From: Gammaproteobacteria bacterium
GTDB lineage: Bacteria > Pseudomonadota > Gammaproteobacteria > SZUA-140
Direction: 5' to 3'
DNA length: 64,000 nt
NCBI GenBank assembly: GCA_015492435.1
Contig: WGFB01000051.1
Span: 15,100-79,099, forward strand
Part shown: piece by piece, positions 12,569 through 60,292 of the stretch
Layout: every line of letters starts with the position of its first letter
Position numbering within the stretch: position 1 is the stretch's first letter
Translations under genes and position numbers: made by a program
Notes under the pieces: model-generated
Database searches by the model: none
What the model was told of the DNA's origin: nothing
What the model saw: only the letters and a program-made list of their open reading frames with translations

Positions 12569-12748
12569 GGGATTCCCTTGATTTGAATGTGATACTCCAC
12601 ATTTTATCAGATAACCGCGGCCATTCTACACAAAACCACCGCCCGGGCGGAGTGCGGCTCAATTATCGGCCCGACAGTTGCAGTGTACGGGCGCCAACCG
12701 TGGAAGACACCTTGTTTCATGCGCCCTGCCGCGTATGGCAGTCCCTGG

Positions 12749-12895
12749 CGTTGGCGTCAAGATACAAGGTACAAGTGAAGTGGCTCTTGTACCTTGTATC
12801 TTGTACCTTGTACCTTGTACCTTGTATCTTGTAACTCGTATCTTATATCTCTCACAATCCCAGCCCCCGGTTTTTTGCGATGACTGGGGTAACCC
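12749..12895. repeat. Heptamer-repeat element, copy a: palindromic (GTACAAG)n array plus inverted hairpin head
   Basis: Boundary motif GCGTTGGCGTCA. Left arm CAAGATACAAGGTACAAG, a 10-nt loop, then right arm CTTGTACCTTGTATCTTGTACCTTGTACCTTGTACCTTGTATCTTGTA, then the head on the opposite strand (CCCAGTCATCGCAAAAAACCGGGGGCTGGGATTGTGAGAG). Confidence 0.7.
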
Positions 12896-20351: not shown

Positions 20352-20399
20352 AACGGGTCGTTTGCCTTGGTTTTACTGCAAGTGATATCGTTCTGTAAA

Positions 20400-20646
20400 C
20401 CCAGTCATTGCATAAATTGGGTACTGGGATTGTGAAAGGTACAAGGTACAAGATACAAGGGAAGCAGCCTTTTGTATCTTGTATCTTGTATCTTGTACCT
20501 TTGTATTTTGTATCCTGCGCCTTCCTGTGGCCTGCTGCTGGATAAAACCTGGGGTGACGCCAGCGCTCGGGGCCGCCACACGCAGCAGGCGTATGAAACA
20601 AGGCGTTATCCTCAGTTGGCACTCGCAATTTTATGCAACTGCCGGG
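20400..20646. repeat. Heptamer-repeat MITE-like element, complete copy b (head hairpin + palindromic heptamer arrays + right terminal inverted repeat)
   Basis: Head CCCAGTCATTGCATAAATTGGGTACTGGGATTGTGAAAG (20400-20438); GTACAAGGTACAAGATACAAGG; a 9-nt loop; TTTTGTATCTTGTATCTTGTATCTTGTACCTTTGTATTTTGTATCC; then the right TIR GTTGGCACTCGCAATTTTATGCAACTGCCGGG (20616-20646), which is an imperfect inverse of the head core. It lies in the divergent promoter region between the Lon-like gene and phhB. Confidence 0.7.
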
Positions 20647-20706
20647 TAAAGTATAACCTGAATCAGTGAGTTCAGGCTCAACCCTGCGACTCGATGAGGT
20701 GGCATT

Positions 20707-21121: not shown

Positions 21122-22552
21122 TTACCCTTTGATACAGATCAACGGCTCCAGGCGAGCCACCTTGCGCGCCAGCCCCGCGTGGTCGGTACTGTCCACCACC
21201 TGATCCACGTCCTTGTACGCCAGGGGGGCCTCCTCGGCGATACCGCGCAGGCTGTGGCCGCGGATGACGATGCCGCGCCGCCCCAGTTCCTCAACGATGT
21301 CCCGGCCGCGCCAGCGTTTCTTGGCCGCGCTGCGGCTCATGGCGCGGCCCGCGCCGTGGCAGGCGGAACTGAAGGCATGGTGGGCGCTCTCCCGGGTTCC
21401 CGCCAGAATGTGGGAACTGGTCCCCATGGAACCCCCCACCAGTACCGGCTGCCCCACTTCGCGGAATGCCGCCGGCAACGCCTCGTGTCCCGGTCCCAGG
21501 GCCCGCGTCGCGCCCTTGCGGTGCACGAACAGGCGGCGTTCCCTGCCATCCACGATGTGTGTCTCCTCCTTGCAGGTATTGTGAGAGACATCGTAGAAGA
21601 GTGGCAGCGTGATGCCGGGAATGACCTCTTGCGCGGCCTGGCGCGCCAGGTGGGTGATGATCTGGCGATTGGCCAGGGCGCAGTTGATGGCGGCGCGCAT
21701 GGCGCCCAGGTAGTCCCGGCCCAGGTCCGAGCGAATGGGGGCGCAGGCCAGCTCCCGGTCCGGCAGTTCGATGCCAAAACCCGGCGCCGCGAGCACCATG
21801 CGCTTGAGGAACTCCATGCCGATCTGGTGCCCCAGGCCCCGTGAACCGCAGTGTATGCTGATGAGCACGTCGTCTTCCTGGATGCCGTAGCGGTGCGCGA
21901 TGTCTTCATCGAAGATCTCCGCCACGCGCTGCACCTCCAGATAGTGATTGCCCGAACCCAGCGTCCCCATCTCGTCCTGCTGGCGCTTGCGGGCATGCTG
22001 CGAAACCTTGGCGGGATCAGCGCCGGGCATTCTACCCCGCTCCTCCACGCGCTCCAGGTCGGCCTCGTTGCCATAGCCCTGCGCCACCGCCCACTGCGCG
22101 CCCCCGGCGAGCATCTCGTCCATCTGGCGGGCGTTCAGGTGGATATGGCCCGTGCTCCCGAGACCGGCGGGGATGGCATGATACAGGGCCGTCGCCAGGG
22201 CTTCCCGCCTTCCCTCAAGATCATGGGTCTTGAGTCCCGTATACAGGGCTCTCACCCCACAGGAGATGTCGAAACCCACCCCGCCCGCCGAGATGACGCC
22301 ACCCTCCGCCTCATCGAAGGCCGCCACGCCGCCGATGGGAAAGCCGTAGCCCCAATGGGCATCGGGCATGGCATAGGAGGCCTTGACGATGCCCGGCAGG
22401 GTAGCGACATTCATGGCCTGTTCCGCCACCTTGTCGTCCAGGCCGCGTATAAGGTCCTCGTCGCCATAGAGGATGGCCGGGACGCGCATTCTGCCCGTGG
22501 CCGGAATCTGCCATTCGCTGGCGGAGGGTCTTGTGAAGCGGGCGATATCCAT
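21122..22552 (-). CDS. rtcB: RNA-splicing ligase RtcB (3'-phosphate/5'-OH RNA ligase)
   Basis: Conserved RtcB blocks: DAHWGYGFPIGGVAAFD, GSGNHYLEVQ, HCGSRGLGHQIG, FVHRKGATRA, SACHGAGR. The start is taken at ATG 22552 (MDIARFTRPS). The track's N-terminal extension (TLVSCTLYLVTCTL) is a translation of the heptamer repeat. Confidence 0.93.
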   Translation of the reverse strand: MDIARFTRPSASEWQIPATGRMRVPAILYGDEDLIRGLDDKVAEQAMNVATLPGIVKASYAMPDAHWGYGFPIGGVAAFDEAEGGVISAGGVGFDISCGVRALYTGLKTHDLEGRREALATALYHAIPAGLGSTGHIHLNARQMDEMLAGGAQWAVAQGYGNEADLERVEERGRMPGADPAKVSQHARKRQQDEMGTLGSGNHYLEVQRVAEIFDEDIAHRYGIQEDDVLISIHCGSRGLGHQIGMEFLKRMVLAAPGFGIELPDRELACAPIRSDLGRDYLGAMRAAINCALANRQIITHLARQAAQEVIPGITLPLFYDVSHNTCKEETHIVDGRERRLFVHRKGATRALGPGHEALPAAFREVGQPVLVGGSMGTSSHILAGTRESAHHAFSSACHGAGRAMSRSAAKKRWRGRDIVEELGRRGIVIRGHSLRGIAEEAPLAYKDVDQVVDSTDHAGLARKVARLEPLICIKG

Positions 22553-22556
22553 AGAT

Positions 22557-22605
22557 GCAAGGGTACAAGTTACAAGGTACAAGGTACAAGATACAAGGGT
22601 ACAAG
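22557..22605. repeat. Heptamer array, copy c (7 tandem GTACAAG-type units), in the archease-rtcB intergenic spacer
   Basis: GCAAGGGTACAAGTTACAAGGTACAAGGTACAAGATACAAGGGTACAAG lies immediately 5' of the rtcB ATG inside a co-directional operon. The unit length of 7 is not a multiple of 3, so it is non-coding. Confidence 0.75.
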
Positions 22606-22655
22606 CTTGGGCTTCGCGGTGTTCAGGCCTGCGGTTCGGGGGTGAGACAGACTCG

Positions 22656-23108
22656 TCATACGTCCACCACGCATTGCGCGACCCACGTGCCCTGCTTGTC
22701 ACGACAGACTTTCAATTCGGTGAAGGTGGCGCCCTTGATCTCGACGGCGGGATGATGTTTCGCGGCATCGATGGGCTCGCCCCATGCCTCTCCCTGCAGG
22801 CCATCACCGGTAAAGGTCACGGAGAACCGGGAAAAGAGCATCTTGCGGGTGGCCATTTCATAGATCAGGGCGTTGATCCAGTCCAGGAGGAGGATCTCGC
22901 TGTCGTCGCCCGCGCATTCGATTCCGATGCGCTCACGGGGAGAGACGTCGGCCACACCGGTGATCACCGCCGTCAGGCCAAGGGCCGCCTGGACAAAGGC
23001 CTCTTCCAGGGTGCCCGCCAGGCCGCGTATCCCGATATCCGATTCATGGGAGAAGTGTTCCCAGCGGGGAGTGATCTTCGTGGTGGCGCCCATGCCCATG
23101 GAGGACAA
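22656..23108 (-). CDS. Archease (RtcB activator)
   Basis: PRWEHFSHESDIGIRGLAGTLEEAFVQAALGLTAVITG is the canonical archease N-terminal signature. The exact start codon is uncertain among the N-terminal Met codons. Confidence 0.9.
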   Translation of the reverse strand: MSSMGMGATTKITPRWEHFSHESDIGIRGLAGTLEEAFVQAALGLTAVITGVADVSPRERIGIECAGDDSEILLLDWINALIYEMATRKMLFSRFSVTFTGDGLQGEAWGEPIDAAKHHPAVEIKGATFTELKVCRDKQGTWVAQCVVDV

Positions 23109-23141
23109 TACTACCGGCTGGTGGGGTGGTGTTCAAACGGC

Positions 23142-23855
23142 TCAGGGCAGATATAGGGAAAAGCGCGCTCCGCCCTGCCCATCCCGGTTGGCGAGACGGA
23201 TATGACCCGCGCGGCCATCGCGGCGGTGCATGGCGGCGATGGCGCGGGAGAAATACAAACCGAGGCCGGTGTTGCCACTGGCGAAACTGACACCCGCTCC
23301 AGCGGCGGCCGCGTTTTCCAGCATGTGCCCGGGATAGCCCGGGCCGTCGTCCTGCACGGTGATCACCAGGCAGCCATCTTCACATCGCGCCTCGAGCGTC
23401 AGTTGCCGGCGCGCATGGCGGATGGCATTGTTGATGGCATTGCCCAGGACGCCCGTGACCAGTTCCCGGTCGAATACCCAGACGAGATCCTCCCCGCACA
23501 GCAGCTCTCCTTCGATATCCCTGCTCTCCAGAAGCGGGGTTTCCTGCAACAGCAGTTCCAACAGTACGTCGTGGACATTCCACTCGGCCAGGTTCGCGCT
23601 GAGCATGGCCTTGTCCATGCGATAGAAGCTGAGAAGCTGGATCATCTTGCCGTTGAGGCGCTTTGCCTCGACCTGCAACTGTCCAAGGCGCTGGTGGCCA
23701 CCCGCCTCCATATCGGGAATGCATGCCTCCAGGGAATCGAGGACGATGGTCAGGGAGTTCTTCATGTCATGGAGGGTCGAGGCGATGAGACTGCCGAAGT
23801 CAGCGCGGCCTTCGTCCGCACCTTTTTCCCCAGGCATGGATTTCTCAGGCAGCAT
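23142..23855 (-). CDS. Soluble histidine kinase (HisKA + HATPase_c, no sensor or TM domain)
   Basis: H-box STLHDMKNSL; N-box GNAINNAIRHA; G-boxes DDGPGYP and GNTGLGLYFSR. 237 aa; overlaps the upstream response-regulator gene by 11 nt. Confidence 0.85.
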   Translation of the reverse strand: MLPEKSMPGEKGADEGRADFGSLIASTLHDMKNSLTIVLDSLEACIPDMEAGGHQRLGQLQVEAKRLNGKMIQLLSFYRMDKAMLSANLAEWNVHDVLLELLLQETPLLESRDIEGELLCGEDLVWVFDRELVTGVLGNAINNAIRHARRQLTLEARCEDGCLVITVQDDGPGYPGHMLENAAAAGAGVSFASGNTGLGLYFSRAIAAMHRRDGRAGHIRLANRDGQGGARFSLYLP

Positions 23856-25482
23856 GGCTCTTGGTCAGGCGGCTGAGCCGTTCCTGCAGCCTGAACAGTT
23901 CGGCCTGGGGAGTACAACGCGCCTTGACTGTCTCCAGGCACTTGCGCGCCAGGCGCAGGTAATCCTCTCGCCCGCCATGTTGTTCCATGTGCATGATGAG
24001 CACCATGGCCGTGTTGGAATTGATGGTTTTATTGTCCGGCATGTCTTCGAGGGCCTCCTGAAAGAGGCTGATGGCTTCGCCAAGGCGCCCCTCCTGGGCA
24101 TAGCGGACACCCTGGTTATTGAGTTTCACCACCTTCCCCCGGCTGTCGGAAATGAGCCGCTTGCCTTCTTCCTCCATACCGACTTGGGCCAGGCTGTGTT
24201 GTATGCGCTCAAGCAGTGTCTCGTCCTCGTGGTGATTCTTGACCAGATCACTGACCAGCTCCGTGCCCTTGTCCTTGTCACCGTTTGCAATGAAGGCCTG
24301 GGCCATTTCCAGGATCAGCTCCGCCGGGAGCTGCCCGCCCATCCTGTCGAATTGCCCGGCGGCCCTGGCAAAGGCCTTGCGCGCTTCTTCTTCCCGCCCC
24401 ATCTCCAAGAGTACGCCATGCTCACACAAAGTGGCCTGGAAATCGGCCTGCTCATCGCGCGGGAAATCCTTGCGCAACTTGCCGAGTACCCTGAGGGCGT
24501 CCTTTTTGGAGCCGGTGTGCACCATGGCTCGGGCCTGCTTGGTGTAATTGGCGGGCGATTTGAAAACTGAATGGGCGCCGATCTGAACCGCTTTCTTGAA
24601 GGCGCGCTCGGCAATCTCATAGCGGCCCTTCTCCAGGGCCAGATCACCCAGCGCCATCTGTCTCTGGATGGCCTTGGGTGACAGCCTGGTGGCCGTGAGC
24701 AGGACCTCCACCGCGGCATCATCCTCTTCAAGACGCACCAGGCATCGGGCCAGCCAGTCATGGGCCTCCATATTATTGGCATTCTGGCCGATGATATCCG
24801 CGAAAATCTCACGCGCGGTCTCATATCGTCCCGTCCGATAGGCTATCCTGCCCAGGCCCATGCGCGCCCAGGGCACGTCCCTGCCGTCAAGTACCGCTTC
24901 ATAAACGGCCTGCGCCTCAGAGAATTGTTCCATCTTCTCATACAGTTCCGCCTTACACTTCAAGAACTCGGAAACATTGTGCGGTTTCTCGTGGATTTTC
25001 CCGTCGCACAACTGGATGGCCTGGATAAGTCTTCCCTGCCTGATGGCCCGCTCGATCTCCTCGAAGTCGCTTTTCCTGAGCATGATCTTCTCCAGGCGCT
25101 GGCGCAGGACGTGCTTGTTGAAGGGCTTTGACATATAGTCGTCCGGCTGATATTCCACCGCGCCCATGACCATGTGCAGAGTGTTCTCTGCCGTGATCAT
25201 CATGAACACCGTCGAATATCTCAACAGGTTCCTGTGCCGGGCCTCCTCCAGAATCTGCTGACCGTCCTTTTCCTCTCCCAGGTTATAATCGCAGAGGATG
25301 ACGTCGTAGTCCTTCTTCGCCATGGCAGTGAGTGCGTCCTTGCCATTGCCTGCACCGTCGACCTCGCTCACGCCATAAGACTCCACCATGTTTCTGAGCA
25401 TGCTGCGCATGTCGGCAAAGTCATCGATGATGAGGAACCGCTTGCCTGAGAAGTCCAGCAGTGGTTTTCTGGGTATTGTCAT
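23845..25482 (-). CDS. Response regulator: CheY-like receiver fused to a TPR-repeat domain (no DNA-binding domain)
   Basis: Receiver FLIIDDFADMR...DVILCDYNLG...SKPF; about 400 aa of TPR-like repeats follow. Confidence 0.85.
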   Translation of the reverse strand: MTIPRKPLLDFSGKRFLIIDDFADMRSMLRNMVESYGVSEVDGAGNGKDALTAMAKKDYDVILCDYNLGEEKDGQQILEEARHRNLLRYSTVFMMITAENTLHMVMGAVEYQPDDYMSKPFNKHVLRQRLEKIMLRKSDFEEIERAIRQGRLIQAIQLCDGKIHEKPHNVSEFLKCKAELYEKMEQFSEAQAVYEAVLDGRDVPWARMGLGRIAYRTGRYETAREIFADIIGQNANNMEAHDWLARCLVRLEEDDAAVEVLLTATRLSPKAIQRQMALGDLALEKGRYEIAERAFKKAVQIGAHSVFKSPANYTKQARAMVHTGSKKDALRVLGKLRKDFPRDEQADFQATLCEHGVLLEMGREEEARKAFARAAGQFDRMGGQLPAELILEMAQAFIANGDKDKGTELVSDLVKNHHEDETLLERIQHSLAQVGMEEEGKRLISDSRGKVVKLNNQGVRYAQEGRLGEAISLFQEALEDMPDNKTINSNTAMVLIMHMEQHGGREDYLRLARKCLETVKARCTPQAELFRLQERLSRLTKSHAA

Positions 25483-25603: not shown

Positions 25604-25655
25604 TTACCCAGCCTGGGAGGGAGCCTTTAGTATCTTGTACCTTGTATCTTGCGCC
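25604..25655. repeat. Heptamer-repeat element, short copy d
   Basis: CCCAGCCTGGGAGG hairpin-like head remnant followed by TATCTTGTACCTTGTATCTTG (3 units). Confidence 0.55.
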
Positions 25656-25904: not shown

Positions 25905-26020
25905 CTCCGGGCAAGGGAAACAAAGGTCTGGATTTAGATACCATTATACTACACCCGGCAGTGACATAAAATCGCACGTGCCAGCCTTGTTTCAAACGCC
26001 CTGCTCTGTGACGTCCCCAA

Positions 26021-26148
26021 GCGTTGGCGTCATATTCAAAGCAGGTACAAGAGGCAAGGTACAAGATACAAGGGACAAGGTACAAGGGGTAGCGTTTTGT
26101 TTCTTGTACCTCTCATGGTCCCAGCACCCAATTTTCCGCAATGACTGG
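26021..26148. repeat. Heptamer-repeat element, copy e (boundary motif + heptamer array + inverted head hairpin)
   Basis: GCGTTGGCGTCA boundary (shared with copy a); GGTACAAGAGGCAAGGTACAAGATACAAGGGACAAGGTACAAGG; spacer; CTTGTACC; then inverted head CCCAGCACCCAATTTTCCGCAATGACTGG. Confidence 0.7.
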
Positions 26149-26195
26149 ATACAGGGTGGCGGGCGTCACCCGGATTCTGTAATACCTGAACCCAC

Positions 26196-29394: not shown

Positions 29395-29606
29395 GACGGA
29401 TCCTTCCTTGCGGCGGAAAGCCGACACAGCGGAATGGGCGGGCCTGCCCGCGCACGGTTGCTTTCCCCATTCTGTCAGTTACAATATTGAGATTGCAAGA
29501 TCTTGGGGGTTTATCAGCAGTTCCATCGCGGTATCTTCTGTCATCACCTTGTATAGTTCTGCAATACTTTTCCGTTTTATTTTCATTTTCACTAGAGGTA
29601 ATTTTC

Positions 29607-29810
29607 ATGGCAACAGGTACCGTTAAATGGTTCAATGAATCCAAGGGTTTTGGTTTTATCGCTCCCGCCGATGGCAGCGCCGACGTGTTCGTGCACTTCT
29701 CGGCGATCGAAGGCACTGGTTTCAAGACCCTGGCCGAGGGTCAGTCTGTAAGCTTTGATGTCGAGGAAGGACCCAAGGGCCCTCAGGCCACCAAGGTTTC
29801 ACCACAATAA
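29607..29810 (+). CDS. cspA: Cold-shock protein, CspA family
   Basis: 67 aa; [64 protein letters not shown]. Preceded by a ~150-nt AT-rich leader ending ...TAGAGGTAATTTTC-ATG, which resembles the E. coli cspA 5'UTR end. Confidence 0.95.
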
Positions 29811-30090
29811 GAAAGCAGTCTAGGAGACTGCCATGTCCGCGGCGCACGCCGGAGCACAACCAGCGTGCGCCGTGGTCAGCTCCAGCACCAACCCACATTT
29901 CTCACCAAGACGGCGGGGCCTCGCTTGATCCTTGAATCCACAAAGGATCCTGCTCAACCGGAAATACACCCTGGTTTTCCGCTCTTTCGTAAAGTCCTTT
30001 GTGAATCCAATTCTCTGCGCGATCATCCCTCCATCCTGGTGAGAAACGCGGGCTGACCAGTTGGGCCCAACCCGCGGTTCTTGATAAAGA

Positions 30091-34229: not shown

Positions 34230-34246
34230 GCCAGAATCTGGGAAAA

Positions 34247-34353
34247 CCCAGTCATTGTAAAAAATTAGGTACTGGGATTGTGAAAGGTACAAGTTACAAG
34301 GTACAAGATACAAGGGAATCGGTTGGCACTCGCAATTTTATGCAACTGCCGGG
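34247..34353. repeat. Heptamer-repeat MITE-like element, compact complete copy f (head hairpin, 4 heptamers, right TIR)
   Basis: CCCAGTCATTGTAAAAAATTAGGTACTGGGATTGTGAAAG + GTACAAGTTACAAGGTACAAGATACAAGG + GGTTGGCACTCGCAATTTTATGCAACTGCCGGG, inserted between the msrAB stop and its hairpin terminator. Confidence 0.7.
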
Positions 34354-34355
34354 AA

Positions 34356-34390
34356 AGAAAGAGCCCCGCTCATGGCGGGGCTCTTTTGGG
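34356..34390. terminator. Bidirectional rho-independent terminator between convergent msrAB and the second csp gene
   Basis: AAGAGCCCCGC-TCATG-GCGGGGCTCTT, followed by TTTTGGG on the plus strand and TTTCTTTCCC on the minus strand. Confidence 0.7.
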
Positions 34391-34405
34391 CCGCGATCGC
34401 TTATT

Positions 34406-34609
34406 TTACTGCGGTACGACGTTGACTGCGCTGGGGCCCTTGGCGCCCTGCTCGCTGTCATAGGTTACGGTCTGCCCTTCCGCCAGTGACTTGAATCCGC
34501 TGGCCTGGATGGCGGAGTGATGCACGAAAACATCGGCGCTGCCGTCGGAAGGTGCGATAAAGCCAAAACCCTTGCTGTCGTTAAACCATTTTACTGTACC
34601 TGTAGCCAT
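34406..34609 (-). CDS. Cold-shock protein, CspA family (second paralog)
   Basis: 67 aa; [67 protein letters not shown]. The track ORF 34406..34828 carries a spurious 73-aa N-terminal extension through the AT-rich leader. Confidence 0.93.
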
Positions 34610-34782
34610 TCTGGTTACCTCGTGTGTTGGTGAAATGTAATGTGTGCAGGTTACTGTTGAGAAATTACGGAAGAGATGACGCTTGATACTGCACTGCGAG
34701 GAACTACCGGAACCACTACGATACAAAAATCTGCAACGCCAGCCATCGTACCCCATGGCGGAGCCGAATGCCAGCAATATTT

Positions 34783-34857
34783 CCCCAATCATTGGAAAAA
34801 TTGGGTAGAGGGAGCGTGGAAGGCGCAAGGTTCAAAGTACTAAGGTACAAGGTAATC
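34783..34857. repeat. Heptamer-repeat element, degenerate copy h (head variant + degenerate heptamers)
   Basis: CCCCAATCATTGGAAAAATTGGGTAGAGGGAGCGTGGAAG + GCGCAAGGTTCAAAGTACTAAGGTACAAGGTAATC. Confidence 0.55.
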
Positions 34858-34883
34858 GGCTGGAAACCCGGGCGGATGGCGCC

Positions 34884-51595: not shown

Positions 51596-51696
51596 GGGCG
51601 CCGGGTACAAGATACTAGGTACAAGCGACAAGATGCAAGTTACAAGATGCAAGGCGCGAGGAATGGCAAGCTTTTGTATCTGATTTCTGGCGCCCC
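51596..51696. repeat. Heptamer-repeat element, degenerate copy i flanked by inverted GGGGCGCC/GGCGCCCC
   Basis: GGGTACAAGATACTAGGTACAAGCGACAAGATGCAAGTTACAAGATGCAAGG ... CTTTTGTATCTG. Confidence 0.55.
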
Positions 51697-55688: not shown

Positions 55689-55910
55689 TCAGTCCCTGTC
55701 CGCGGGGGAGTTGATCTCGAGTTCGTTGCGCAGGATGGTCAGCTCCCGTGGGGCCTGGATGCTGATCCGCACCTGGCCAGGATTGATCTTCCTGATATGA
55801 AACTCGAACGGCCCGTCACGGAACAGCTCCGCCACCGTCATGTTCGGATCGATGTTTTCAGAGGGATAAATCTGTATCGATTCTCCAGCACGCCGTGTTA
55901 AAACCAACAT
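55689..55910 (-). CDS. CsrA/RsmA-family RNA-binding translational regulator, divergent paralog with an ~18-aa insertion in the beta2-beta3 region
   Basis: MLVLTRRAGESIQI...GQVRISIQAPRELTILRNELE vs E. coli CsrA MLILTRRVGETLMI...[21 protein letters not shown]. The insertion is YPSENIDPNMTVAELFRDGPFEFHIRKI. Confidence 0.75.
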   Translation of the reverse strand: MLVLTRRAGESIQIYPSENIDPNMTVAELFRDGPFEFHIRKINPGQVRISIQAPRELTILRNELEINSPADRD

Positions 55911-59256: not shown

Positions 59257-59330
59257 GAGGGGTGATACGTGAAGTGTGAGGCGTGGCGCAGTTCATGGAT
59301 GAGACACGCCTCACCCTTCACGTATCACCC
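59257..59330. terminator. Large inverted repeat (~26-bp arms, 19-nt spacer) between convergent cysH-like and 2-hydroxyacid dehydrogenase genes; likely bidirectional terminator
   Basis: GAGGGGTGATACGTGAAGTGTGAGGCGTG ... CACGCCTCACCCTTCACGTATCACCC; an extra CACGCCTCAC half-repeat follows. Confidence 0.55.
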
Positions 59331-59338
59331 TTCACGCC

Positions 59339-60292
59339 TCACGTCACCAAATTGCGCGGCTCACCCGAGGCCCACGCCCGGATATTGAGCGCCACTTCGT
59401 CCACCAGGCGCTGCCGCGCCTCGCGGCTGGCCCAGGCGATGTGCGGCGTCACGATGAGATTGGGTATGTCACGAGCCAGCAAGGGACTGTCTTCCCCGGG
59501 CGGCTCCACGGCCAGCACGTCCACCCCCGCCCCGCCCAGGTGTCCTGACTTCAGGGCATGGGCCAGGGCATGCTCATCCACGATCCCGCCGCGCGCGGTA
59601 TTGATCAGCAAGGCCCCGGGCTTCATGGCGGCCATCTCGGCCGCGCCTATCAGGCCGCGGGTATTGCCGGCCAGGGGACAGTGGAGTGTCAGCACATCCA
59701 CTTGCGGTAACAGATCAGGCAGCGCCACTCGCCCTTCCATCTCGGGAGATCCGGGCCGGGCCGCAATCAGCACATGCATGCCGAAGGCATGCGCGACCTT
59801 GGCCACCGACCGGCCCAGCTCGCCATAGCCCACGATGCCCAGGGTCTTGCCCGCCAGTTCGCCGATGGGATAGTCCAGCAGGCAGAAATCCCTGCTGCCC
59901 TGCCAGCGCCCGCCCCTGACGGCCCCCATGTACTCGGGCAGGCGGGTGACCAGGGCCAGCAGCAGGCAGAAGACGTGCTGGGTCACGGCGGGAGTGGCAT
60001 AACCACGCACATTGCACACCCTGATGCCCCGCGCCTCGGCGCCCGCGACATCAATATTGTCGGTCCCCGTCGCGGAGACGCATACCAGGCGCAGATCGCC
60101 AAGGGCCTGGAAATGCGCCGCATCCAGGGGCACCTTGTTGCTGACGGCGACCTGGGCGCTGGCCAGGCGCCCGGTCACCTCCTCCGGCCGGGAATGGCCA
60201 AAAAATCGCCACTCCGGCAACACGGCCTTCAGCCCCGACAAATCGAGGTCCCCCCGGTCCAGGGAATCGATATCAAGAAAAACGCCCAGCAT
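59339..60292 (-). CDS. D-isomer-specific 2-hydroxyacid dehydrogenase (glycerate/hydroxypyruvate reductase-like)
   Basis: NAD-binding GIVGYGELGRSVAKVAHAFGMHV, catalytic region ...TARGGIVDE...HIAWAS. Confidence 0.88.
   Translation of the reverse strand: MLGVFLDIDSLDRGDLDLSGLKAVLPEWRFFGHSRPEEVTGRLASAQVAVSNKVPLDAAHFQALGDLRLVCVSATGTDNIDVAGAEARGIRVCNVRGYATPAVTQHVFCLLLALVTRLPEYMGAVRGGRWQGSRDFCLLDYPIGELAGKTLGIVGYGELGRSVAKVAHAFGMHVLIAARPGSPEMEGRVALPDLLPQVDVLTLHCPLAGNTRGLIGAAEMAAMKPGALLINTARGGIVDEHALAHALKSGHLGGAGVDVLAVEPPGEDSPLLARDIPNLIVTPHIAWASREARQRLVDEVALNIRAWASGEPRNLVT

What the first reader, a model, noticed from the sequence alone, without database searches (positions are those of the whole stretch)
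22553..22655. Heptamer repeat array embedded inside the archease-rtcB operon, directly 5' of rtcB
The 103-nt spacer between the archease stop (22656) and the rtcB ATG (22552) consists largely of seven GTACAAG-type units (22557-22605). The gene order is co-directional: HK - RR - archease - [array] - rtcB. The array could set rtcB translation or transcription levels and be tunable by repeat number, or it could be a protein/RNA-binding platform. Its read-through translation creates the spurious TLVSCTLYLVTCTL N-terminal extension in the ORF track.
Basis: seen in the sequence. Interest (0 to 1): 0.6.

Follow-up and report, generated by a model that had tools for sequence, protein, structure and literature searches.

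The report
Dispersed heptamer repeat replacing rtcB's ribosome-binding site
The repeat in front of rtcB is real, but it is one copy of a genome-wide, slippage-prone 7-base repeat family (also carried inside small mobile elements) that recently invaded this operon and replaced the gene's normal ribosome-binding site, while the gene has stayed under selection.

Summary
Confirmed: seven CTTGTAY units (22553-22605, minus strand) fill the rtcB-proximal half of the 103-nt archease-rtcB spacer and run up to the ATG.

It is not specific to rtcB. The same unit forms about nine intergenic arrays in this 64-kb window (26 two-unit matches against 0.05 expected). Five lie inside ~110-250-bp MITE-like elements, where opposed arrays form a hairpin.

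Orthologous loci show a recent gain. Relatives with 72% RtcB identity have a 17-nt spacer with a canonical GGAGG. An 86% relative has 34 nt and no repeats. Only 95-100% relatives carry the array, and none of them has a Shine-Dalgarno.

Four arrays differ by whole units (7, 8, 14, 21 nt) between near-identical genomes. Yet rtcB stays under purifying selection (dN/dS 0.12-0.16), and the spacer accumulates fewer point changes than neighbouring synonymous sites (p = 9e-4).

Best reading: a slippage-prone dispersed repeat now serves as an unstructured, pyrimidine-rich, SD-less leader for rtcB. Any specific regulatory role is unproven, and start-abutting arrays are a minority of the family.

Closest precedent: the TAACTGA heptamer repeats of Beggiatoaceae.

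Unexplained extra: across many phyla these arrays form inverted pairs with a fixed polarity (26:2), twice bracketing a PF05635 gene.

The parts
22553..22605 (-). Heptamer array: seven CTTGTAY-type units (two of 8 nt, and a last degenerate unit, CTTGCATCT, of 9 nt) ending at the rtcB ATG
   Evidence: The last unit is absent in L001-L003 and L120. Unstructured as RNA (z = -0.3). 72% pyrimidine.
22606..22655 (-). Non-repeat half of the archease-rtcB spacer: unique sequence, also absent from distant relatives. It ends in CCCAAG directly abutting the first CTTGTAC, possibly a collapsed opposite arm.
21122..22552 (-). rtcB (476 aa), start ATG at 22552, with no Shine-Dalgarno upstream
   Evidence: Pfam RtcB E = 2.5e-169. 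Anti-SD duplex energy 0 kcal/mol. dN/dS 0.12-0.16 within the array-bearing clade.
22656..23108 (-). Archease gene. The called start in sister strains gives 147 aa, about 9 nt inside this ORF.
   Evidence: Pfam Archease E = 3.7e-37; gene calls
23142..23855 (-). HATPase_c protein (237 aa)
23845..25482 (-). Response-regulator receiver plus TPR protein (545 aa)
25630..25651 (-). Short stand-alone array reading TACAAG sense on the same strand as the rtcB operon, about 150 nt upstream of the receiver-TPR gene. It is complementary to the rtcB array.
   Evidence: Predicted duplex -40.6 kcal/mol against a control mean of -15.3. Identical in L119.
20396..20647 (+). MITE-like composite: module A, (TACAAG)3, loop, (CTTGTA)6, module C, module D. 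Flanked by TAAA/TAAA and absent from the orthologous site in L120.
   Evidence: Hairpin -37.9 kcal/mol, z = -7.2. One-unit indel against L001.
12670..12892 (-). MITE-like composite upstream of the Rsd/AlgQ gene, with (TACAAG)~9 and (CTTGTA)2
   Evidence: Two-unit (14-nt) indel against L124.
25953..26153 (-). MITE-like composite upstream of the dodecin gene, flanked by TGTA/TGTA
   Evidence: Three-unit (21-nt) difference against L119.
34244..34354 (+). Short MITE-like composite (module A, (TACAAG)4, module D; no second arm and no module C)
   Evidence: The orthologous site in L128 has the full-length form.
34780..34870 (+). Degenerate composite copy (module A plus about 4 degenerate units)
51607..51653 (-). 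Stand-alone degenerate array (CTTGTA sense) in an intra-cluster spacer, about 130 nt upstream of a lipoprotein gene that has its own SD

Best explanation
The array is one copy of a dispersed, slippage-prone heptanucleotide repeat family, (CTTGTAY)n. In this species-level lineage of an uncultured gammaproteobacterium it invaded the archease-rtcB junction and replaced the ancestral short spacer with its Shine-Dalgarno. It now forms the untranslated leader that runs up to the rtcB start codon. As RNA that leader is pyrimidine-rich, has little predicted structure, and has no complementarity to the 16S rRNA 3' end. rtcB must therefore be translated by SD-independent initiation on an open leader, probably helped by ribosomal protein S1. 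Replication slippage adds or removes whole units, which changes leader length between strains without touching the reading frame. Shown: the repeat family, the recent gain, the loss of the SD, the unit-scale polymorphism, continued purifying selection on rtcB, the low point-substitution rate in the spacer, and the low predicted structure. Inferred: co-transcription with archease, SD-independent (S1-type) initiation, and any effect of unit number on expression. The array probably originated as a solo or collapsed arm of the opposed-array hairpins that the same family forms elsewhere; this is inference from the CCCAAG|CTTGTAC junction.
For: Family membership: about 9 arrays of the same unit in 64 kb, all intergenic, with 26 matches against 0.05 expected. 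Recent gain that replaced the SD: synteny (dodecin, REC-TPR, HATPase, archease, rtcB, PCD) is kept in relatives with 72% RtcB identity, whose spacer is 17 nt, cagaGGAGGcgcaggcaATG. The 86% relative has 34 nt without repeats. Only the 95-100% relatives have 6-7 units abutting the ATG. Anti-SD duplex energy is 0 kcal/mol for the array leaders, against -12.0 (72% relative) and -5.5 (86% relative). Open leader: MFE for -70..+40 is -10 to -15 kcal/mol against -28 to -30 for leaders without an array. The array alone has z = -0.3 and the spacer z = +1.2. Gene still functional: dN/dS is 0.12-0.16 among array-bearing genomes at dS up to 0.18, the same as on branches without an array. Constraint on the spacer: 2/95 differences, and 0/45 in the array, between L001 and L120, against 39/295 at flanking third codon positions; Fisher p = 9e-4. 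Slippage: unit-scale indels at four array loci between genomes 98-100% identical in the flanking sequence, of 8 nt, 7 nt, 14 nt and 21 nt. Not translated: the 8-nt indel occurs with an identical RtcB protein. No promoter or terminator consensus in the spacer. Independent parallels: about ten arrays in other genomes end 4-13 nt before a long ORF's start with no SD. The published TAACTGA repeats have the same layout (PMC4679880).
Against: Start-abutting arrays are a minority. In this window only rtcB's array abuts a start; the 51.6k array lies 130 nt from a gene that has its own SD. In the cross-genome survey the CTTGTA-outward side faces gene ends (58) more often than starts (29). The excess of forward over reverse start-abutting arrays is not significant (10 vs 5, p = 0.30). 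Predicted accessibility of the start region is only modestly above background (0.48-0.57 against 0.45 +/- 0.08). Several neighbouring genes also have weak SDs, so the array may simply be tolerated and not used. L119 has a rearranged array and lacks about 35 nt of the upstream spacer, so constraint on the spacer is not absolute. The low substitution count could partly reflect recombination mosaicism or concerted evolution within the array. There are no expression data of any kind.
Confidence: 0.55

Rival explanations
1. Specific binding platform: the repeated heptamers are sites for a dedicated nucleic-acid-binding protein (for example a cold-shock-domain, S1-domain or CsrA-like protein on RNA, or a DNA-binding protein). 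All array-bearing loci, including rtcB, would then form one regulon.
For: Many copies of one unit dispersed over the genome. The spacer, including the array, has fewer point substitutions than synonymous sites. The fixed polarity of inverted pairs across phyla (26:2, p = 3e-6) suggests the unit is read directionally. The same proposal was made for the TAACTGA repeats (PMC4679880) and for Nostoc heptamer repeats (bioRxiv 10.1101/2022.06.06.494920). Two cspA genes and a CsrA homolog lie in the window.
Against: No candidate protein is identified. Arrays occur in either sense relative to neighbouring genes and at widely varying distances from them. Unit number and order change freely between close strains. 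The array is absent from relatives that keep the same operon. A 7-bp period places successive sites on different faces of duplex DNA (established helix geometry).
Confidence: 0.15
2. RNA-RNA pairing arm: the CUUGUAY array at the rtcB start pairs with a complementary (UACAAG)n array. The partner could lie in cis (25630-25651, about 3 kb upstream on the same strand) or in trans (transcripts of the many other arrays). The duplex would occlude the start region or create an RNase III site.
For: Predicted duplex of -40.6 kcal/mol between the 25.6k array and the rtcB array, against a control mean of -15.3 and a best control of -25.8. Both arrays are present in L119 and both are absent in L122. Their order on the strand follows the general TACAAG...CTTGTA polarity. 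Elsewhere opposed arrays form very stable hairpins (z = -7.2) and bracket cargo of up to about 450 nt.
Against: With two solo arrays this orientation has a 25% chance. It is unknown whether the 25.6k array lies on the same transcript. A 3-kb loop competing with translation of three intervening genes is kinetically unfavourable (inference). There is only one extra genome for the co-occurrence test.
Confidence: 0.1
3. Neutral or selfish junk: the array is a remnant of a mobile or slippage-generated element with no role. rtcB is expressed in spite of it, and the spacer's conservation reflects recombination or concerted evolution.
For: Lineage-specific, recent, and hypervariable in unit number. 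The same unit is cargo of MITE-like insertions that show presence/absence polymorphism. There is no orientation rule relative to genes. Divergence along the locus is patchy.
Against: The insertion removed the only SD, yet rtcB remains strongly constrained, so the array-bearing leader must at least support initiation. The spacer has significantly fewer substitutions than flanking synonymous sites, in its non-repeat half as well.
Confidence: 0.15
4. Rho-utilisation or polarity site: the C-rich, G-poor, unstructured, untranslated 103-nt spacer lets Rho load between archease and rtcB, making rtcB transcription dependent on efficient translation initiation.
For: The spacer RNA has C 36 and G 19 of 103 nt. 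The array is 72% pyrimidine with one YC dimer per unit. It has little structure. There is no intrinsic terminator. The features of rut sites are from established knowledge, not tested here.
Against: No rut predictor or experiment is available here. The composition argument is generic. Purifying selection on rtcB shows that enough full-length mRNA is made.
Confidence: 0.05

Closest known systems
TAACTGA heptamer direct repeats of marine Beggiatoaceae (MacGregor 2015, PMC4679880)
   Same: Tandem 7-nt units, 2-6 or more copies, many dispersed intergenic sets in one genome. A forward-oriented set ends within a few nucleotides of a start codon and overlaps the expected RBS, with no Shine-Dalgarno. 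The phylogenetic distribution is sporadic and includes gamma sulfur-oxidisers and Bacteroidetes. Function is unproven; translational roles via S1, Csp or CsrA have been proposed.
   Different: A different unit (CTTGTAY). In BOGUAY most sets (132 of 170) point at a start codon and only one inverted repeat exists. Here start-abutting arrays are a minority, inverted pairs are common and polar, and arrays are cargo of MITE-like elements.
Long simple sequence repeats (5-11-nt units; Mrazek et al. 2007, as summarised in PMC4679880) and cyanobacterial STRR/heptamer repeats (Nostoc recF/recO preprint, 10.1101/2022.06.06.494920)
   Same: Heptanucleotide tandem repeats that are over-represented, mostly intergenic, slippage-prone, and found near promoters or start codons. 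In Nostoc, deleting a heptamer block changed reporter output.
   Different: Those families have other units. No link to MITE-like elements, to polar inverted pairs or to PF05635 cassettes is reported in the texts I read.
Phase-variable simple sequence repeats in 5' untranslated regions (Moraxella uspA2 AGAT repeats, cited in PMC4679880; Haemophilus influenzae 5'-UTR SSR, PMC12721329, abstract only)
   Same: A repeat tract between the promoter and the start codon whose copy number varies between strains and can tune expression.
   Different: Those are 1-4-nt units in host-adapted pathogens, upstream of surface or virulence genes. Here the unit is 7 nt, the gene is an RNA-repair ligase in an environmental bacterium, and the tract is one of many identical-unit arrays genome-wide.
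Bacterial MITEs with a modular or hairpin interior (e.g. BOX, Correia, ERIC elements; from general knowledge)
   Same: This applies to the five composite elements, not to the rtcB array itself. They are ~110-250 bp and non-coding, with imperfect terminal inverted repeats, short A/T-rich flanking duplications, many copies, presence/absence polymorphism, and a variable-copy internal module.
   Different: The variable interior is a pair of opposed heptamer arrays. No autonomous partner or transposase was identified. The rtcB array has none of the terminal modules.

Membership tests
Dispersed heptanucleotide tandem repeats (LSSR / STRR-like) | Head-to-tail copies of a 7-nt unit, at least 3 copies | tested here: met
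   Seven units at 22553-22605
Dispersed heptanucleotide tandem repeats (LSSR / STRR-like) | The same unit at many separate loci, far above chance, mostly intergenic | tested here: met
   About 9 loci in 64 kb, all intergenic; 26 matches against 0.05 expected
Dispersed heptanucleotide tandem repeats (LSSR / STRR-like) | Copy number varies between close strains in whole units | tested here: met
   Indels of 8, 7, 14 and 21 nt at four loci
Start-codon-proximal heptamer repeats (MacGregor TAACTGA type) | A forward-oriented set ends within a few nt of the start codon, with no SD | tested here: met
   The array ends 0-2 nt before the ATG; anti-SD energy 0 kcal/mol
Start-codon-proximal heptamer repeats (MacGregor TAACTGA type) | Most sets in the genome share that position and orientation | tested here: not met
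   Only 1 of about 9 arrays in the window. Cross-genome survey shows no bias toward starts; 10 vs 5, p = 0.30. The whole genome was not available.
Start-codon-proximal heptamer repeats (MacGregor TAACTGA type) | Unit TAACTGA | tested here: not met
   The unit is CTTGTAY
Phase-variation contingency locus | Repeat inside an ORF, or between the -35 and -10 boxes, so that unit changes switch expression on and off | tested here: not met
   The array lies outside the ORF; RtcB is identical across the 8-nt indel; no promoter hexamers found
MITE | Terminal inverted repeats and target-site duplication flanking the unit | tested here: not met
   For the rtcB array: profile searches find no module A, C or D near 22.5 kb, and the flanks are unique. 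For the five composites the feature is met or suggestive.
Described structured RNA (riboswitch, leader, sRNA) | Match to an Rfam covariance model, or a conserved fold | tested here: not met
   No Rfam hit at the gathering threshold or at E <= 5 other than generic hairpin noise; the array is unstructured
CRISPR array | Repeats of 24-48 nt separated by unique spacers | tested here: not met
   The units are 7-9 nt and contiguous
Internal promoter or intrinsic terminator | Sigma-70 hexamers with 16-18-nt spacing, or a GC-rich hairpin followed by a T-run | tested here: not met
   0 sites of either kind in 22300-23300. Other sigma factors were not covered.

The most novel reading that the evidence does not exclude
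The CTTGTAY/TACAAG heptamer arrays are the arms of a previously undescribed, cross-phylum class of polar foldback elements, always 5'-(TACAAG)n-cargo-(CTTGTA)m-3'. The cargo ranges from a dozen nucleotides to a PF05635 '23S rRNA intervening-sequence protein' gene. These elements spread horizontally or are generated by a shared mechanism. The rtcB array would be a solo arm that has been co-opted, and is now held under purifying selection, as a Shine-Dalgarno-independent translation leader whose length is tuned by slippage.
Probability: 0.2. Interest if true: 0.75.

Novelty: new variant of a known kind. Interest (0 to 1): 0.5.

Why it matters
Dispersed heptamer repeats next to start codons have been reported twice (Beggiatoaceae and Nostoc) without resolving what they do. 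This locus adds something those reports lacked, an evolutionary before-and-after series. The same conserved operon is seen with a canonical SD, with an intermediate spacer, and with the SD replaced by the array, and the gene stays under purifying selection after the replacement. That gives a direct reporter experiment: ancestral spacer against 0, 3, 6 and 7 units. It would ask whether such repeats support, tune or merely tolerate SD-independent initiation. The wider observations, namely MITE-like elements whose core is an opposed pair of arrays and a fixed polarity of such pairs across phyla, point to a mobile or structure-forming element class that may be undescribed. They also warn annotators that ORFs read straight through these stop-free arrays, producing false N-terminal extensions.

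Tried and rejected
(1) A described RNA family: Rfam at gathering and at E <= 5 gave nothing at the arrays or composites, only miRNA-like hairpin noise.
(2) Internal promoter or terminator in the spacer: none by consensus scan.
(3) Array translated as an RtcB N-terminal extension or a leader peptide: rejected, because strains with an identical RtcB differ by 8 nt inside it, and the RtcB N-terminus from ATG 22552 is conserved down to the 72% relatives.
(4) rtcB array as a fragment of the MITE-like composite: no module A, C or D nearby, and the flanks are unique.
(5) Module D (TTGGCAC...) as a sigma-54 promoter: by eye there is no GC/TTGC at the required 10-nt spacing. No tool was used for this.
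(6) The 51.6k array as a second start-abutting example: rejected after the gene call and signal peptide placed the true start, with its own SD, 130 nt downstream.
(7) A family-wide 'CUUGUA-sense leader' rule: not supported by the gene-context survey or the counts.
(8) Phages as carriers: only 13 viral contigs hold the three-unit pattern; not pursued.
(9) Literature search for the unit string returned only primer noise. A search for PF05635 with inverted repeats found nothing on heptamers.
(10) CCUUGUAC matches a conserved 16S rRNA segment, from memory; an 8-mer match has roughly a 7% chance in rRNA and was not followed.
(11) Exact-protein look-ups for two genes near the 51.6k array found nothing.
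(12) CRISPR, integron attC and iterons were considered and dismissed on unit size and architecture.

Full report
OBSERVATION. On the minus strand the spacer between the archease stop (22656-22658) and the rtcB ATG (22552) is 103 nt. Its rtcB-proximal 53 nt read CTTGTACC CTTGTAT CTTGTAC CTTGTAC CTTGTAA CTTGTACC CTTGCATCT, followed directly by ATG. Tandem Repeats Finder reports period 7, 6.1 copies, score 65. Pfam confirms RtcB (E = 2.5e-169) and archease (E = 3.7e-37). The two upstream genes are a receiver-TPR protein and a 237-aa HATPase_c protein, in that order. The long ORF 21122-22702 that reads through the array is an artefact.

NOT A LOCAL FEATURE. The same unit forms arrays at about nine places in the 64-kb window, all between genes. 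A two-unit pattern with up to one mismatch occurs 26 times against 0.05 expected from shuffles. Five of these loci are larger composite elements (12.7-12.9, 20.4-20.6, 26.0-26.2, 34.24-34.35 and 34.78-34.87 kb). Each has a conserved left module (CCCAGTCATTG..AAATTGGGTACTGGGATTGTGA), then (TACAAG)n, a conserved loop, (CTTGTA)m, and two further modules. The last module (TTGGCACTCGCAATTTTATGCAACTGCCGGG) is an imperfect inverted copy of the first.

A 95% relative (L120) has an empty site where the window has the 20.4-kb copy, and that copy is flanked by TAAA/TAAA. The 26-kb copy is flanked by TGTA/TGTA. These composites are therefore MITE-like insertions whose core is a pair of opposed heptamer arrays that fold into a very stable hairpin (-37.9 kcal/mol, z = -7.2). 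The arrays at rtcB, 25.6 kb and 51.6 kb stand alone. Profile searches find none of the modules near them, and their flanks are unique sequence. Rfam has no family for any of this.

HISTORY OF THE rtcB ARRAY. The exact RtcB protein occurs in three other assemblies, including MAG GCA_027049415.1. Homologs at 98%, 95%, 86% and 72% identity were located with their contigs. Synteny is kept throughout. The 72% relatives have a 17-nt spacer, cagaGGAGGcgcaggcaATG, with a canonical Shine-Dalgarno. The 86% relative has 34 nt and no repeats. The 95-100% relatives have six or seven units running into the ATG (CTTGTACCCATG) and no Shine-Dalgarno. The relatives without an rtcB array have no arrays anywhere on their contigs.

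Anti-SD duplex energy is 0 kcal/mol for the array leaders, -5.5 for the 86% relative and -12.0 for the 72% relative. The array is thus a recent, lineage-specific gain that took the place of the ribosome-binding site.

DYNAMICS. Four array loci differ by whole units:
- Between genomes 99.4-99.8% identical over this locus, the only indel in the spacer is one 8-nt unit next to the ATG.
- The 20.4-kb composite differs by one unit.
- The 12.8-kb composite differs by two units within otherwise identical sequence.
- The 26-kb composite differs by three units against the 98% relative.
The 98% relative also has a reordered rtcB array and lacks about 35 nt of the upstream spacer. Point substitutions, in contrast, are rare. 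L001 and L120 differ at 2 of 95 spacer positions, and at 0 of 45 in the array, against 39 of 295 flanking third codon positions (Fisher p = 9e-4). The clearly non-coding PCD-Lon spacer differs by 10-18% between the window and L120.

CONSEQUENCE FOR rtcB. Among array-bearing genomes rtcB has dN/dS of 0.12-0.16 at dS up to 0.18, indistinguishable from the branches without an array. The gene has therefore stayed functional behind an SD-less leader. The array RNA is 72% pyrimidine and has no structure beyond chance (z = -0.3). The whole spacer is less structured than shuffled versions of itself (z = +1.2). The -70..+40 region folds at -10 to -15 kcal/mol, against -28 to -30 for the leaders without an array. 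Start-site accessibility is only modestly above the background of 41 genes (0.48-0.57 against 0.45 +/- 0.08). No sigma-70-type promoter and no intrinsic terminator is found in 22300-23300. The most economical reading is that rtcB is co-transcribed with archease and translated by SD-independent initiation on an open, pyrimidine-rich leader. S1-assisted initiation is inferred from established knowledge of such leaders and was not tested.

LIMITS ON A FUNCTIONAL CLAIM. The second forward array, at 51.6 kb, turned out to lie 130 nt from a lipoprotein gene that has its own SD. In a survey of about 150 arrays from many genomes, roughly ten independent cases end 4-13 nt before an SD-less start. However, the excess over the opposite sense is not significant (10 vs 5, p = 0.30). 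With rough gene calls, the CTTGTA-outward side faces gene ends (58) more often than starts (29). Several neighbouring genes also have weak SDs. The array may therefore be tolerated and not used. The low substitution rate argues for some constraint, but recombination mosaicism or concerted evolution could contribute to it.

WIDER DISTRIBUTION. The hits come from Gammaproteobacteria (Thioalkalivibrio denitrificans on four contigs, Acidiferrobacterales MAGs, Thalassotalea), Bacteroidota, Patescibacteria, Clostridia, Thermodesulfobacteriota and Planctomycetota. The window's MITE modules are absent from all of them. They were found only in six contigs of one JGI metagenome that holds a ~96.6% identical relative.

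A recurrent architecture is an inverted pair, and its polarity is fixed: 26 pairs read 5'-(TACAAG)n...(CTTGTA)m-3' and 2 read the reverse order (p = 3e-6). Both exceptions are 400-700 nt apart. Either order would form a hairpin, so this polarity is unexplained. In two unrelated MAGs the pair brackets a PF05635 (23S rRNA intervening-sequence protein) gene. I found no paper describing this. Only 13 viral contigs carry the pattern.

COMPARISON WITH WHAT IS KNOWN. The closest precedent is the TAACTGA heptamer repeats of marine Beggiatoaceae. These form 170 sets, most pointing at a start codon and ending within a few nucleotides of it, with canonical RBSs rare in those spacers and a sporadic distribution over gamma sulfur-oxidisers, cyanobacteria and Bacteroidetes. 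Translational roles through S1, Csp or CsrA have been proposed but not shown (PMC4679880). Heptamers are the commonest class of long simple sequence repeats in prokaryotes (Mrazek et al. 2007, as summarised in PMC4679880). In Nostoc, deleting a heptamer block altered reporter output (bioRxiv 10.1101/2022.06.06.494920).

The rtcB array meets the defining features of a dispersed heptanucleotide repeat and has the start-abutting, SD-less layout. It differs in its unit, in the minority status of that layout, in the frequent polar inverted pairs, and in being MITE cargo. It is not a phase-variation switch, because it lies outside the ORF and outside any promoter spacer. It is not a described RNA family, not a CRISPR array, and not itself a MITE.

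VERDICT. It missed that this is a genome-wide repeat family and a recent invader, not an rtcB-specific control element. The best-supported mechanism is a slippage-prone dispersed repeat now serving as an SD-less, unstructured leader (confidence 0.55 for the whole statement; its descriptive parts are near certain). Rivals are a specific protein-binding platform, RNA-RNA pairing with complementary arrays (for example 25630-25651, duplex -40.6 kcal/mol), neutral junk, and a Rho loading site. The novelty level is a new variant of a known kind. Interest is moderate, raised by the clean evolutionary series at this locus and by the unexplained cross-phylum polar pairs.

Noticed in passing
window 12670-12892 (-), 20396-20647 (+), 25953-26153 (-), 34244-34354 (+), 34780-34870 (+): Five copies of a MITE-like element (~110-250 bp) with imperfect terminal inverted repeats (CCCAGTCATTGCATAAATTGGG... 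against the reverse complement of ...TTTTATGCAACTGCCGGG), 3-4-bp A/T-rich flanking duplications, and an internal hairpin made of opposed heptamer arrays. One copy is absent from the orthologous site of a 95% relative. Three copies lie just upstream of genes (Rsd/AlgQ, pterin-4a-carbinolamine dehydratase, dodecin), followed by a TATAAT-like box.
   Followed up: partly
L063 4094-4603; L105 1690-2176: In a Patescibacteria-like MAG and an Oscillospiraceae MAG, inverted arrays of the same heptamer bracket a PF05635 (23S rRNA intervening-sequence / four-helix-bundle protein) gene (E = 5e-18 and 3e-30). No paper describing this was found.
   Followed up: partly
about 105 loci from the genome scan (e.g. 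L017, L055, L057, L079, L102, L103, L110, L118): Inverted heptamer-array pairs have a fixed polarity across phyla: 26 read 5'-(TACAAG)n...(CTTGTA)m-3' and 2 the reverse (p = 3e-6). The loop or cargo between the arms is not conserved between genomes. In L079 the two arms abut the start codons of two divergent genes with no SD.
   Followed up: partly
L128 7654-8888 (ortholog of window ~34.24-34.36 kb): A strain ~96.6% identical to the window carries the full-length composite at the 34.3-kb site, followed by a low-GC ~320-aa gene with a sulfotransferase-like GSHRSGTT motif (by eye, not tested). The window lacks this gene and has only a short form of the composite there.
   Followed up: no
window 34356-34740 (-) and 29481-29875 (+): Two cspA genes with Rfam cspA thermoregulator leaders (87.1 bits, above the gathering score, and 61.7 bits, below it). 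The first is flanked on both sides by composite elements.
   Followed up: no
window 55689-55910 (-): A 73-aa CsrA homolog (weak Pfam hit in the precomputed gene call of L133) lies upstream of an MCP / STAS / receiver-PP2C-HATPase cluster. It is of interest only because CsrA-type proteins have been proposed as heptamer binders.
   Followed up: no
window 59305-59343: A different heptamer/14-mer tandem repeat (CACGCCT / CACGCCTCACCCTT, 2.7-5.6 copies) in another intergenic region, so this genome has more than one short-unit repeat family.
   Followed up: no
L007 3150-3780: A Patescibacteria contig that is a near-perfect long palindrome (probably an assembly artefact). It carries the GATACAAG array next to a second heptamer array, TCCGACA x5.
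   Followed up: no
L125 and L126 (contig starts); window ~12800: Two independent short-read assemblies break their contigs inside the 12.8-kb array, so these arrays fragment metagenome assemblies. Copy numbers taken from assemblies should be confirmed with long reads.
   Followed up: no
window 22606-22611 and 51660-51672: Both stand-alone forward arrays are preceded by a short opposite-sense remnant directly abutting the first unit (CCCAAG|CTTGTAC and GATACAAAAG|CTTGCC). This is consistent with collapsed hairpins whose left arm was lost.
   Followed up: no
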